The notes under the pieces: generated by a model | Told to the model about the DNA's origin: nothing | What the model saw: only the letters and a program-made list of their open reading frames with translations | The model's database searches: none | Made by a program: the position numbers and the translations under genes | Shown: one piece after another, positions 47,591-50,500 of the stretch | How positions within the stretch are numbered: position 1 is the stretch's first letter | Layout: every line of letters begins with the position of its first letter | DNA from: Flavobacterium sp. | Lineage (GTDB): Bacteria > Bacteroidota > Bacteroidia > Flavobacteriales > Flavobacteriaceae | NCBI GenBank assembly: GCA_036676965.1 | Contig: JAKFBW010000055.1 | Location: 3,567-67,566 of the forward strand | Reading direction: 5' to 3' | Length of the DNA stretch: 64,000 bases

Positions 47591-50500
47591 TTACTCCCCC
47601 AACATTTCCATCAACTCCAAAGCTTTTCGGGTAGACTTCACATTATCAAAAGTCAATAGCAAACGCAAGCCGTTAGGCGTTTGTTTTTCTTTCATCTTAC
47701 AAAGGCTACTTTGTTTTTGCACAAACTGCAATACTTTATGAAAACGGGCGGAGTGGTAATAATCCGATTGCTGGTCGGAGACGAAATAGCCAATCATCTT
47801 ACCCTGTTTCATCACCAATTTTTCGATTCCTACACTGGTAGCAATCCATTTGATGCGGATACTGTTCATTAATGCAATCGCTCTTGGCGGCATAGGCCCA
47901 AAACGGTCAATAAGTCTTTTCTGGAACAATTGCAATTCTTCCTCGTTCTTGATGGCGCCCAATTCGTTATACAAATTCAATCGCTCGCTAATATTATTGA
48001 TGTATTCATCGGAGAACAACAACTCAAAATCGGTGTCGATTTGAAGGTCTTTGACGTATTCCTTGGTATCGATATCATTTTCCTCCGGGTACAGATCCTT
48101 GAATTCGTTTTCCTTCAATTCATCGATGGCTTCGTTCATGATTTTTTGGTAGGTGTCAAAACCAATCTCGTTGATAAAACCAGATTGTTCTCCACCCAAT
48201 AAATCCCCGGCACCGCGAATCTCCAAATCTTTCATCGCTATGTTAAATCCGCTGCCGAGTTCACTGAATTGCTCCAAAGCCTGGATTCGTTTTCGAGCAT
48301 CATCCGTCATCGCCGAATAGGGTGGACAAATGAAATAACAAAACGCCTTTTTGTTGCTACGTCCTACCCGACCGCGCATTTGATGCAAATCAGACAGCCC
48401 GAAATTATTGGCATTATTGATAAAAATCGTATTCGCATTCGGAACGTCCAGACCACTTTCGATAATGGTGGTCGCCACCAAAACATCAAATTCCCCGTTC
48501 ATAAATGCCAACATGAGTTCTTCGAGTTTTTTTCCCTCCATCTGGCCGTGACCGATTCCCACCCGGGCGTTAGGCACCAAACGCTGGATCATTCCGGCAA
48601 TTTCCTTGATATTTTCGATGCGGTTATTGATGAAAAAAACCTGTCCGTTGCGCTGAATTTCATATGAAATCGCATCGCGGATAATCTCTTCGTTAAAACC
48701 AACCACATTCGTCTCAATGGGATATCTGTTGGGCGGCGGCGTCGTAATTACCGATAAATCCCGCGCTGCCATCAACGAAAACTGTAAGGTTCTCGGAATG
48801 GGCGTAGCCGTCAACGTCAGTGTATCGACATTGGCCGCAATGGTTTTGAGTTTGTCTTTTACGTTAACCCCAAATTTTTGTTCCTCGTCTACAATCAGTA
48901 GTCCCAAATCTTTGAAAACCACATTTTTGTTGACCAGTTGATGGGTTCCAATCACGATATCAAGCTTGCCTTCGGCCAGTTGTTTTAAAGTTTCTGATTT
49001 TTGTTTGGCGGTCCTGAAGCGATTCAAATAACCTACCGAAACCGGCATATCTTTCAATCGTTCCGAGAAAGTGCGGTAATGCTGGTAGGCCAAAATAGTC
49101 GTTGGCACCAAAATAGCCACTTGTTTGCTGTTATCCACCGCTTTGAAAGCCGCACGGATAGCCACCTCGGTTTTACCAAAACCAACATCCCCACAAACCA
49201 AACGATCCATCGGGCGATCGCTTTCCATATCGGCTTTTACCTCCTGGGTCGATTTGGTTTGGTCTGGCGTATCTTCGTAAATAAACGAACTCTCTAATTC
49301 ATTTTGCAAATAACTGTCGGGCGCAAACTGGAATCCTTTCTCCAATCGCCTTTTGGCATACAACTGAATCAGATTGAAGGCTATATGTTTGACCCTTGCC
49401 TTGGTTTTTTGTTTTAAGACTTTCCAGGCATTCGAACCCAATTTGTAAATCTTGGGTGGCGTGCCGTCTTTTCCGTTGTATTTCGAAATTTTATGCAGCG
49501 AATGAATACTCACATACACAATATCATTATCGGCATAGACCAACTTAATTGTCTCTTGGGTTTTGCCTTCGACCTGTATTTTTTGTAAACCGCCAAATTT
49601 CCCGATTCCGTGGTCGATATGTGTCACATAATCGCCAACCGAAAGTGTGGTTAACTCTTTTAACGTAATATTCTGCTTTTTCGAATACCCATTTTTGATG
49701 TTGAATTTATGATAGCGTTCAAAAATCTGGTGATCAGTATAGCAAGTGATTTGGTTTTCCTCATCAATAAAACCCTGATACAATGGCAATACGATTGTGT
49801 TGTATTGCTTGCGGATGTTCTCGGAATTGGCCTCATCTAAAGTTTTTGACCCTTTTTTTATTGTTTTTGATTGGTGGTCAAGAACCGTCTCATTAACTTT
49901 ACTTTTCTGAATGAAATTTTCGTCTAAGACGGTTTCAAAAATATCATGAAAGCGTTTGGCCTGGGCTTCATTCGAACAAAACAAATAATTTTTATAGCCG
50001 TTAAAATGATTCTCATTCAGATTATTCAACAACAAATCGAATTGCTTATTGAATGACGGTTGCGGCTGAATGTGAAATTCGAATTGTTTGGTGCTTTTAA
50101 AGATGGGCTTCGAACCCAATTCCACAATCGAAAAATCTAAGGCCCTTTTGACAAAAGCACGCTGATTCAGGAACAATTGCTCCGGTGAGGCATGTTTAAT
50201 TTCTTTCGATAATTTTTCGAATGCTTCTTCGGCTTTGGCAAATTGTTTGTCTAATTGGGACAGGAAATCTTCAGTATTCTGAATAAACAAAACCGTTTTC
50301 TCCGAAATATAATCCAGGAAACTTTCCCGGTTTTCCTGAAAAATCTTGTTTTCGACATTGGGAATGATCGTGATTTTTTTCTGGATTTCTATCGACAACT
50401 GGGTGGCCACATCAAAGGTTCGAATACTGTCGACCTCGTTCCCGAAAAACTCAATCCGGTACGGATTATCATTCGAAAACGAAAACACATCCACGATTCC

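What the first reader, a model, noticed from the sequence alone, without database searches (positions are those of the whole stretch)
49841..49930. 30-codon hairpin-rich insert in Mfd
Seen: ...RFHDIFET-VLDENFIQKSKVNETVLDHQSKTIKKGSKT-LDEANSENIRKQ. The 90 bp carry two inverted repeats on the coding strand (AACCGTCTTA...TGAGACGGTT and TTGACC...GGTCAA), a CGTC-TAA-GACG mini-hairpin at the edge, and echoing ETVLD/ETVLD/KTLD peptides. Recalled, not aligned: flavobacterial Mfd reads FETLDEANSE. Inference: a third in-frame non-coding-derived insertion in a housekeeping gene, from a family unrelated to the ileS ones.
Basis: partly seen in the sequence, partly recalled or inferred. Interest (0 to 1): 0.62.

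Follow-up and report, generated by a model that had tools for sequence, protein, structure and literature searches.

The report
Old come-and-go 30-codon insert in Mfd
A real, translated 30-codon insertion sits in a floppy loop of the DNA-repair protein Mfd in this Flavobacterium; it is a single-copy, ancient segment that two weak DNA hairpins exactly cover and that has apparently been lost again and again in related species, so it is an unusual indel, not a jumping repeat.

Summary
About 270 Flavobacterium orthologues lack it and read FE-TLDEANSEN.

It is not a dispersed repeat. It is single-copy in this genome, and a core-pattern scan of ~185,000 species genomes plus metagenomes found it only in mfd.

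I found 11 carriers. All have exactly 30 codons at the same site, with no stops. Carriers are scattered on both mfd and rpoB trees (AU test against one clade, p=4e-42). This genome's five closest relatives (90-94% nt identity) all lack the insert.

Insert divergence still tracks host-gene divergence (Spearman 0.885, Mantel p=1e-4). Two near-identical insert-less alleles carry mutation clusters exactly at the junction.

Two inverted repeats tile the insert end to end and are kept in most carriers (92.7% of cells paired, two covarying pairs). A core, GGTTCTTG.C.ACCA, is invariant even at synonymous sites.

Best reading: one ancient insertion into the variable D3 loop, inherited vertically and lost repeatedly by hairpin-assisted deletion. 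Lateral spread is the main rival. One pair of inserts (1 difference in 90 nt against ~16% gene divergence) remains unexplained. Interest is moderate.

The parts
47591..51046 (-). mfd (transcription-repair coupling factor), 1151 aa, the host gene
   Evidence: ORF list and translation. Precomputed Pfam set on homologues: UvrB_inter, CarD_TRCF_RID, DEAD, Helicase_C, TRCF. phmmer hit to E. coli Mfd 2EYQ at E=6e-197. Foldseek hits to Mfd structures.
49844..49933 (-). 90-nt, 30-codon insert ACC GTC ... TCA AAA, encoding TVLDENFIQKSKVNETVLDHQSKTIKKGSK (Mfd residues 372-401).
   Evidence: Exact 90-nt gap in orthologue alignments. Position in the gene. Register fixed by carriers that keep a native AGT or TCG codon 3' of the insert.
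49926..49934 (-). Hairpin 1, 5' arm AACCGTCTT. Its first base is the last A of the native GAA codon.
   Evidence: Pairs counted (helix 1: 94.9% of cells paired; pair 19-62 is GC in 8 sequences, AU in 2, GU in 1).
49883..49891 (-). Hairpin 1, 3' arm GAGACGGTT
   Evidence: It is the MFE helix in 7 of 9 distinct carriers.
49892..49921 (-). Hypervariable loop of hairpin 1 (codons 5-14 of the insert). About 40-50% nucleotide divergence between deep carriers, with no length change.
   Evidence: Alignments.
49876..49881 (-). Hairpin 2, 5' arm TTGACC
   Evidence: pair 73-98 is CG in 8 sequences, GC in 2, unpaired in 1.
49846..49851 (-). Hairpin 2, 3' arm GGTCAA. It ends 2 nt before the 3' end of the insert.
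49872..49886 (-). Core GGTTCTTG.C.ACCA, invariant in all 11 carriers including third codon positions
   Evidence: Codon-identity excess over the rest of mfd.
49934..49936 (-). Native junction codon GAA (Glu371). It is mutated to GCG or GAG in two near-identical insert-less alleles.
49841..49843 (-). Native Thr codon ACT 3' of the insert. With the preceding AA it forms the short direct repeat AA|AC found at both junctions.

Best explanation
The segment is a single-copy, translated 30-codon insertion in a flexible loop of the poorly conserved D3 region of Mfd. It arose once, deep within Flavobacterium. It has since been inherited vertically with the gene and lost repeatedly, usually precisely, in most descendant lineages, so the surviving carriers look scattered. 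The inferred mechanism of loss is as follows. Two inverted repeats fold the whole 90 nt into two adjacent hairpins. In single-stranded DNA this brings the short direct repeat AA|AC at the two junctions together, which is the classical substrate for replication-slippage deletion of hairpin-forming DNA. The same inverted repeats probably account for part of the nucleotide-level conservation and the paired changes in the arms, either through selection or through templated arm-to-arm correction. At the protein level the insert is most likely a tolerated, Lys-rich, disordered loop extension. SHOWN: presence and absence across orthologues, single-copy status, invariant length and open frame, non-monophyly of carriers, co-divergence with the host gene, conserved pairing, and junction mutation clusters in insert-less sisters. 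INFERRED: the single origin, slippage as the mechanism of loss, and neutrality for Mfd function.
For: (1) All 11 carriers have exactly 30 codons at the same phosphodiester bond, with no stop or frameshift, even where the loop is 40-50% diverged. The insert is therefore translated and homologous by descent. (2) Insert divergence tracks divergence of the rest of mfd: Spearman 0.83 with 10 carriers, 0.885 with 11, Mantel p=1e-4. The deepest host (P0167, 24-27% nt divergence) has the most divergent insert (30-36 of 90). P0002, P0003 and L083 form a carrier clade whose inserts have diverged in step. (3) There is no other copy anywhere, so no donor exists for repeated insertion. (4) Carriers' flanks match their own insert-less sister species right up to the junction, with no co-transferred patch, as in-situ descent predicts. 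(5) In the clade around this genome, carriers MLJ10 and G080 are successive outgroups and G000 is nested among five insert-less lineages. Two of those near-identical alleles carry multi-nucleotide changes exactly at the site. GAA ACC has become GAG GGT in P0094, which is the only cluster of >=4 changes per 6 nt in 3186 nt. GAA has become GCG in P0093. Glu at this position is otherwise near-universal. These look like scars of independent, not quite precise deletions. (6) The hairpins span columns 15-66 and 68-103 of an insert occupying 16-105, so their feet coincide with the insert's ends. Pairing is kept in 92.7% of cells, with two covarying pairs. (7) The same loop carries other come-and-go indels: a 66-nt insert in G204 and G300 that is absent from sister G023, and a 9-aa insert in G002. 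The AF2 segment model gives pLDDT 29-41 for the insert beside a well-modelled domain.
Against: Many independent losses are needed: 5 carriers require 5 changes on the rpoB tree, and dozens of losses across ~400 genus genomes. Nearly all empty sites are clean. The direct repeat is only 4-5 nt and the hairpins are energetically weak. No excision was observed directly, because only assembled contigs were available. The G000 and G271 inserts differ at 1 of 90 nt, with 29/29 identical codons, although the rest of mfd differs by ~16% and rpoB rejects these two as sisters. MLJ10 and G080 show 3 differences against ~15 expected. Pure vertical descent at a constant rate does not explain either pair. 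The invariant synonymous sites of the core need an extra assumption. The GGGT 'footprint' in P0094 could be a chance 4-5-mer match (p~0.1-0.3).
Confidence: 0.55

Rival explanations
1. Lateral spread. The 90-nt cassette was gained several times, moving between the mfd genes of different Flavobacterium species without its flanks. This could happen by very short-patch homologous exchange anchored in the conserved upstream 23 nt and the insert's own conserved core, or by an unknown site-specific mechanism.
For: Every carrier examined is a singleton nested among insert-less relatives at every scale. The AU test rejects carrier monophyly (p=4e-42) and rejects G000+G271 as sisters (p=2e-6). G000 and G271 inserts are 89/90 identical, against ~84% identity in the rest of the gene. 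Synonymous sites in the insert are frozen (29/29 codons against a 58% baseline; still significant with aa-matched and codon-matched baselines). In another pair, P0002 and P0003, the left part of the insert does accumulate synonymous changes, so the freeze is not universal. Parsimony favours a few gains over dozens of losses.
Against: No flanking co-conversion is seen in any carrier. Downstream identity runs are <=8-11 nt, too short for RecA-type exchange. No donor copy or associated enzyme gene was found. Insert and host co-diverge, and deep carriers sit in hosts 24-27% diverged, beyond the usual range of homologous recombination. Junction scars in insert-less sisters point to loss. Exchange limited to lineages that already carry the insert would explain the outlier pairs without any new gains.
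Confidence: 0.2
2. Nucleic-acid function. The two hairpins and the invariant core are a selected RNA or DNA element embedded in the coding sequence, for example an mRNA structure that modulates translation between Mfd domains, or a protein- or sRNA-binding site. The peptide would then be a by-product. This is compatible with either evolutionary history.
For: The core GGTTCTTG.C.ACCA is invariant in 11 lineages, including third positions. Three of 4 aa-invariant codons in the insert are also codon-invariant, against 59/577 in the rest of mfd; with ten carriers the figures were 5/5 against 13%. The conserved third positions fall in stem positions. Pairing holds in 92.7% of cells (0/500 shuffles reach it) and the covariation score is reached by 1/500 shuffles. 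Compensatory G:C to A:U and C:G to G:C changes occur through non-synonymous substitutions, with a G:U intermediate in L083.
Against: Stability is marginal (z about -2; GC-adjusted rank 28/1121). Hairpin 2 is broken in MLJ10 and G080, and hairpin 1 is weakened in G063 and L083. There is no Rfam match. Most of the genus does without the element. Only two pairs covary among related sequences, and both covarying sites are CpG-type transitions. Templated arm-to-arm correction of quasipalindromes gives the same pattern without selection (PMC7202029, PMC8604942). No usable expression data were found.
Confidence: 0.15
3. First reader's model. The insert is an in-frame copy of a dispersed non-coding palindromic repeat (REP, RPE or MITE type), from a second family in this genome.
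For: It contains inverted repeats and a CGTC...GACG motif reminiscent of CGTC-tagged REPs, which do occur in Bacteroidetes and inside genes (PMC3733652). This genome is rich in other REP-like arrays (earlier scan notes).
Against: It is single-copy by BLASTN, blastn-short, tblastn and nhmmer --max. Outside this genome it is found only in mfd. Its loops are 24-34 nt, whereas REPs have 4-5 nt loops with 8-9 bp stems. It has no terminal inverted repeats and no clear target-site duplication.
Confidence: 0.03
4. Origin by local tandem duplication of the adjacent 30 codons (or of a 15-codon unit), followed by divergence. This concerns origin only.
For: The insert starts ACC GTC TTA GAC GAA AAT, against ACT TTA GAT GAG GCC AAT in the native downstream sequence (T(V)LDE.N against TLDEAN). 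A second TVLD lies 15 codons in.
Against: Semi-global alignment of the insert against the downstream 32 residues scores no better than shuffles in any of 10 carriers (p=0.12-0.70). The two TVLD motifs use complementary codons, not identical ones, so they form an inverted repeat at the DNA level and not a direct one.
Confidence: 0.1

Closest known systems
Lineage-specific in-frame indels ('conserved signature indels') in surface loops of housekeeping proteins
   Same: In-frame and translated. Located in a variable, poorly structured loop of a conserved protein. Homologous among carriers and of fixed length.
   Different: Its distribution is not clade-defining: carriers are scattered, and monophyly is rejected. 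Two inverted repeats tile it exactly, and its core is conserved at synonymous sites.
Intragenic palindromic repeats: Rickettsia palindromic elements (RPEs) and GTAG/CGTC-tagged REPs inserted in ORFs (PMC3733652; PMC1779305)
   Same: A short hairpin-forming sequence inserted in frame in a functional gene and tolerated as extra peptide. It contains a CGTC/GACG motif.
   Different: Those elements are multi-copy dispersed families with 8-9 bp stems and 4-5 nt loops. This one is single-copy, occurs only in mfd, and has 24-34 nt loops.
Hairpin- or quasipalindrome-associated deletion and template-switch mutagenesis. Precise excision of inverted-repeat DNA between short direct repeats is established bacterial genetics. 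Arm homogenisation: PMC7202029, PMC8604942.
   Same: The geometry fits: inverted repeats bring flanking 4-5 nt direct repeats together. The arms change in a paired manner. Loss restores the ancestral reading frame exactly.
   Different: Here the process is inferred from comparative data only. The arms are short and the stems weak, and no deletion event was observed directly.
IS200/IS605-derived miniature elements (PATEs), which have subterminal hairpins, no target duplication and seamless excision
   Same: A hairpin lies near each end, there is no clear target-site duplication, and loss is apparently seamless.
   Different: There is only one copy per genome and only one target site in any genome. 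No associated TnpA was identified, and insert and host co-diverge.

Membership tests
Mfd/TRCF (host gene) | UvrB-homology module, CarD/TRCF RNAP-interacting domain, superfamily-2 translocase and TRCF C-terminal domain, in that order | tested here: met
   Precomputed Pfam set on close homologues: PF17757, PF02559, PF00270, PF00271, PF03461. phmmer to 2EYQ at E=6e-197 over residues 422-1080 and 33-232. Foldseek hits to 6X26, 2EYQ and 3HJH.
Dispersed palindromic repeat (REP / CGTC-REP / RPE) | Many copies dispersed in the genome, mostly intergenic | tested here: not met
   Only the self-hit by BLASTN, and by nhmmer --max, tblastn and blastn-short. Pattern scans of genome and metagenome collections hit only mfd.
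Dispersed palindromic repeat (REP / CGTC-REP / RPE) | Compact palindrome: 8-9 bp stem, 4-5 nt loop, unpaired GTAG or CGTC tag at one end (PMC3733652) | tested here: not met
   The stems are 9 and 6 bp, but the loops are 34 and 24 nt. CGTC lies inside the stem, not as a terminal tag.
MITE | Terminal inverted repeats at both ends, a target-site duplication, and multiple copies | tested here: not met
   The inverted repeats form two separate internal hairpins and do not pair the two ends with each other. Only a 4-5 nt AA|AC repeat flanks the insert. It is single-copy.
IS200/IS605-type miniature element (PATE) | Subterminal hairpins, insertion 3' of a fixed tetra- or pentanucleotide at many sites, TnpA or RAYT supplied in trans | tested here: inconclusive
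   Two hairpins near the ends fit. There is only one site in any genome. Presence of a Y1 transposase in carrier genomes was not tested.
Clade-marking signature indel | In-frame indel of fixed length in a loop | tested here: met
   30 codons in all 11 carriers. pLDDT 29-41 in the segment model.
Clade-marking signature indel | Carriers form one clade | tested here: not met
   On the rpoB tree, 5 carriers need 5 changes and the AU test gives p=4e-42. The mfd tree scatters them likewise.
Known structured RNA family (Rfam) | Match to a curated covariance model | tested here: not met
   cmscan of 49600-50200 at E<=1 gives only a chance-level hit outside the insert (18 bits against a gathering score of 65).
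Diversity-generating retroelement target (variable region) | A template-repeat copy nearby, and adenine-specific variation | tested here: not met
   No second copy exists in the genome. Loop variation is not confined to adenines.
Local tandem duplication | Insert alignable to the adjacent sequence | tested here: not met
   Alignment scores fall within the shuffle distribution for all 10 carriers tested.

The most novel reading that the evidence does not exclude
The 90-nt two-hairpin cassette is a minimal, site-restricted mobile unit. It would be inserted into, and excised from, one specific bond in mfd as folded single-stranded DNA, by hairpin-guided strand transfer or slippage. It would then pass between Flavobacterium species without any flanking DNA, which would explain both the frozen synonymous sites and the singleton carriers. 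It might also, or instead, carry a selected RNA or DNA function.
Probability: 0.12. Interest if true: 0.8.

Novelty: new variant of a known kind. Interest (0 to 1): 0.4.

Why it matters
If the preferred reading holds, this is a clean natural example of DNA secondary structure governing the evolutionary lifetime of a protein insertion. An in-frame segment would persist for a long time in some lineages yet be erased seamlessly, many times over, in others. Such an indel would mislead anyone using it as a phylogenetic marker. It also marks a loop in Mfd's D3 region that tolerates 9-30 extra residues, which is useful for tagging or engineering Mfd. If the lateral-spread reading is right instead, it would be a new and very small kind of site-specific mobile DNA. 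For annotation, the practical result is simple: the gene is intact and the extra 30 codons are real.

Tried and rejected
Dispersed-repeat origin: rejected, no second copy and none outside mfd.

Tandem duplication of the adjacent 30 codons: no support.

Inversion of the hairpin-1 spacer between carriers: checked by eye on the sequences, and the loops are not reverse complements of each other.

Diversity-generating retroelement target: no template copy, and the variation is not A-specific.

Rfam family: none.

Recombination patch around the insert in G271 relative to G011, G155 relative to G016, or G080 relative to G219: none seen in 60- and 120-nt windows.

Same-strain excision variants in metagenome contigs: the insert-less contigs there belong to other lineages, and only assembled contigs were served, so rare excision is untestable.

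RNA-level skipping of the insert: the RNA runs held only relatives' insert-less alleles.

Full-length AlphaFold model: unusable, mean pLDDT 39. The segment model was used instead.

My first flank analysis used a faulty insert-presence flag and was discarded in favour.

The first junction-cluster count was inflated by the divergent intergenic 3' end and was redone on coding sequence only.

The GGGT 'footprint' in P0094 is arithmetically consistent with 82+8 nt deleted from a G000-type insert. I do not count it as evidence, because a 4-5-mer match somewhere in 90 nt is expected by chance with p~0.1-0.3.
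Full report
WHAT IS THERE. The minus-strand ORF at window 47591-51046 encodes a 1151-residue Mfd, the transcription-repair coupling factor. It has the usual domain set and strong matches to solved Mfd structures. Around residue 372 it reads RFHDIFE-TVLDENFIQKSKVNETVLDHQSKTIKKGSK-TLDEANSEN. I searched 40 related genomes and then ~400 genomes of the genus. Almost every orthologue reads FE-[TS]LDEANSEN, with the two halves of the query abutting, so there is an exact 30-codon gap. The boundary is ambiguous by one codon because an ACN codon lies on both sides. 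Carriers whose native codon is AGT or TCG show that the inserted DNA is ACC GTC ... TCA AAA, which is window 49844-49933 and gene nt 1114-1203.

NOT A REPEAT FAMILY. BLASTN of the insert plus flanks against the whole 4.28-Mb assembly gives only the self-hit and short A-rich noise. A profile of ten inserts run with nhmmer --max, tblastn of the peptide, and blastn-short of each half also find only the self-hit. I scanned for the conserved core pattern GGTTCTTGNCNACCAANNNNAAACA. In one genome per 185,579 species it gave five Flavobacterium hits, all inside mfd at this site, and four chance hits in unrelated ORFs. In 241 million metagenome records it gave one more mfd carrier and five chance hits. 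Rfam has no match. The 'non-coding-derived family' interpretation is not supported. CGTC-tagged REPs, which the CGTC/GACG motif recalls, are multi-copy and have 4-5 nt loops (PMC3733652). This element has neither property.

CARRIERS. Eleven lineages carry a homologous insert:
- This genome.
- F. magnesitis (G271).
- MAG MLJ.10.
- G080.
- Two metagenomic proteins, P0002 and P0003.
- A metagenome contig (L083).
- Flavobacterium sp. UMI-01 (G063).
- F. saliperosum (G155).
- MAG GL117 (G017).
- A deep lineage, P0167.

All are exactly 30 codons long, at the same bond, with no stop or frameshift, although the first half of the insert is 40-50% diverged between deep carriers. The segment is therefore translated and is kept open by selection on the downstream two thirds of Mfd.

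WHERE IT SITS IN THE PROTEIN. The site lies about 18 residues upstream of the residue that aligns with E. coli Mfd 433. From my own knowledge of the 2EYQ domain boundaries, this places it in the poorly conserved D3 region, between the UvrB-homology module and the RNAP-interacting domain. A full-length AlphaFold model was unusable (pLDDT 39). A model of residues 190-559, built on a more diverse alignment, has pLDDT 74-90 for the flanking alpha/beta domain. In that model the insert starts as a continuation of the helix ending ...RFHDIFE and then lies in the 187-219 stretch with pLDDT 29-41. The model matches Mfd structures. The same loop holds other indels: a 9-residue one in G002, and a 66-nt low-complexity one in G204 and G300 that is absent from their sister G023. 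The loop is tolerant and is an indel hotspot.

DISTRIBUTION. Carriers do not form a clade. On an Mfd tree with the insert masked, G271 is sister to insert-less G011, G155 sits inside a 100%-supported clade with insert-less G016 and G021, and G080 groups with four insert-less genomes. An independent rpoB DNA tree gives the same picture. Five carriers need five changes, even counting only strongly supported branches. The AU test rejects carrier monophyly (p=4e-42) and rejects G000+G271 as sisters (p=2e-6). F. saliperosum's named relatives (F. suncheonense, F. enshiense and others) lack the insert. Five metagenomic lineages are 90.6-94.3% identical to this genome across 3.2 kb of mfd and its neighbours, and all of them lack it. 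The nearest carriers are only 84.4% (MLJ10) and 80.8% (G080) identical. The tree is (G080,(MLJ10,((P0080,P0095),(G000,(P0094,(P0093,P0052)))))) with 98-100% support.

VERTICAL DESCENT OR LATERAL SPREAD. Two sets of facts pull in opposite directions.

Facts favouring lateral spread:
- Synonymous sites inside the insert are far more conserved than in the rest of mfd. G000 against G271 has 29/29 identical codons against a 58% baseline. The excess holds for every pair tested (only marginally for G063-G017, p=0.09). It survives amino-acid-matched and codon-matched baselines.
- The G000 and G271 inserts differ at 1 of 90 nt although the genes differ by ~16%. MLJ10 and G080 differ at 3 positions against ~15 expected.

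Facts favouring vertical descent with loss:
- Insert divergence tracks host divergence across all pairs (Spearman 0.83, then 0.885 with the deep carrier; Mantel p=1e-4).
- P0002, P0003 and L083 form a carrier clade whose inserts have diverged at about the gene's rate, including synonymous changes in the first eight codons.
- Carriers' flanks resemble their own insert-less sisters right up to the junction, with no co-transferred patch.
- No donor copy exists anywhere.
- The deepest carriers sit in hosts 24-27% diverged, where homologous exchange is implausible.

The decisive-looking detail comes from the close relatives. Between the near-identical insert-less alleles P0052 and P0094, the single most divergent 6-nt window in 3186 coding nucleotides is the insertion site itself (GAA ACC against GAG GGT, 4 of 6 positions). 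P0093 has GAA changed to GCG in the same junction codon. Glu at this position is otherwise near-universal. Mutation clusters exactly at the empty site, in sisters of a carrier, are what imperfect deletions would leave. A gain in G000 gives no reason for them. I therefore prefer a single ancient insertion with vertical descent and recurrent loss. The two outlier pairs remain unexplained. Short-patch exchange limited to lineages that already carry the insert, using its conserved core as the only stretch of high identity, would account for them, but this is not shown.

THE HAIRPINS. On the coding strand, AACCGTCTT (49934-49926) pairs with GAGACGGTT (49891-49883), and TTGACC (49881-49876) pairs with GGTCAA (49851-49846). 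In the alignment the two helices span columns 15-66 and 68-103 of an insert occupying columns 16-105, so they cover it end to end. Across 11 carriers, 92.7% of pair cells are standard pairs (0/500 column shuffles reach this), and the covariation score is reached by 1/500 shuffles. Two pairs show compensatory double changes made through non-synonymous substitutions. One is G:C to A:U in G155 and P0167, with a G:U intermediate in L083. The other is C:G to G:C in G155 and G017.

Several caveats apply. The sequences are related, and only two pairs covary. The hairpin-1 covariation (G:C to A:U) is a pair of CpG-type transitions; the hairpin-2 change (C:G to G:C) is a pair of transversions. Hairpin 2 is broken in MLJ10 and G080, and hairpin 1 is weakened in G063 and L083. 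Stability is modest: RNA z=-2.0, GC-adjusted rank 28/1121 among mfd windows, and DNA folds of -7.5 to -17.5 kcal/mol.

The ETVLD/ETVLD peptide echo is largely a by-product of the inverted repeat. ACC-GT and ACG-GT are reverse complements, and both encode Thr-Val. The invariant core GGTTCTTG.C.ACCA (49886-49872) overlaps the 3' arm of hairpin 1 and the 5' arm of hairpin 2, and its conserved third positions are stem positions. Either selection on a nucleic-acid structure or templated arm-to-arm correction of quasipalindromes (PMC7202029, PMC8604942) could produce this pattern. I cannot separate the two.

MECHANISM OFFERED. This is inferred. In single-stranded DNA the two hairpins bring the junctions together, where a short direct repeat (GAA|AC... 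and AAA|AC...) is present in most carriers. Replication slippage across such a structure deletes exactly the 90 nt and restores FE-TLDE. Established bacterial genetics describes this route for the precise excision of inverted-repeat DNA. It would make loss much more frequent than gain, would give clean empty sites with occasional scars, and would leave carriers as scattered survivors. It was not observed directly. The public runs that hold this stretch are served only as assembled contigs, and the insert-less contigs in them belong to other lineages.

ORIGIN. The insert begins with a near-copy of the native downstream codons (T(V)LDE.N against TLDEAN). The rest is no more similar to the adjacent 32 residues than shuffled sequence is. 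A complex replication error, combining a short duplication with a fold-back copy that created hairpin 1, is plausible but untested.

VERDICT. This is a real, old, single-copy, translated insertion in a tolerant loop of Mfd. Its unusual features are a come-and-go distribution, two inverted repeats that tile it exactly, and conservation at synonymous sites. It is a variant of a familiar kind of feature, the lineage-specific indel, and not a new kind of system. A small probability remains that it is a minimal site-specific mobile cassette or a functional nucleic-acid element.

Noticed in passing
L045 (G204) and L046 (G300), about 24 nt downstream of the site equivalent to window 49844; sister L024 (G023) lacks it: A different 66-nt low-complexity insert with internal near-tandem units (e.g. 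ACCTACAACCCAAA repeated) sits in the same Mfd loop in two species. It is absent from the sister species G023. It is also more conserved between its two carriers (89-92%) than their flanks are (78-84%).
   Followed up: partly
L031 (G002), same loop: A 9-residue insertion lies between ...DNSEN and ...LKYKT in another Flavobacterium Mfd. It is a third independent length variant of this loop.
   Followed up: no
L042/L070 (Flavobacterium sp. UMI-01, G063): mfd against rpoB (L095): The rpoB tree places UMI-01 firmly (100*) with G111, G271 and G011, but its mfd branches outside that group and is more distant from G271 than G000 is. This suggests whole-gene or large-segment exchange of mfd between species.
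   Followed up: partly
window 51039-51698 (-) and its counterparts in L114-L118: A conserved 219-aa ORF with no Pfam hit lies immediately upstream of mfd, and its stop overlaps the mfd start by 8 nt. The arrangement is kept in all close relatives examined.
   Followed up: no
L114 (P0093) and L118 (P0095), 3' end of mfd: Close relatives end Mfd differently (...MLGGVEVCF and ...MLGGGEI, against ...MLGE in the window). DNA identity drops to 40-60% just past the stop codon, so the downstream neighbourhood differs among near-identical strains.
   Followed up: no
runs X1-X9: Contigs identical to this stretch, insert included, occur in soil, aquatic and groundwater metagenomes from at least three studies. 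The carrier strain or species is therefore environmentally widespread. Some of these samples may be the source of the assembly.
   Followed up: no
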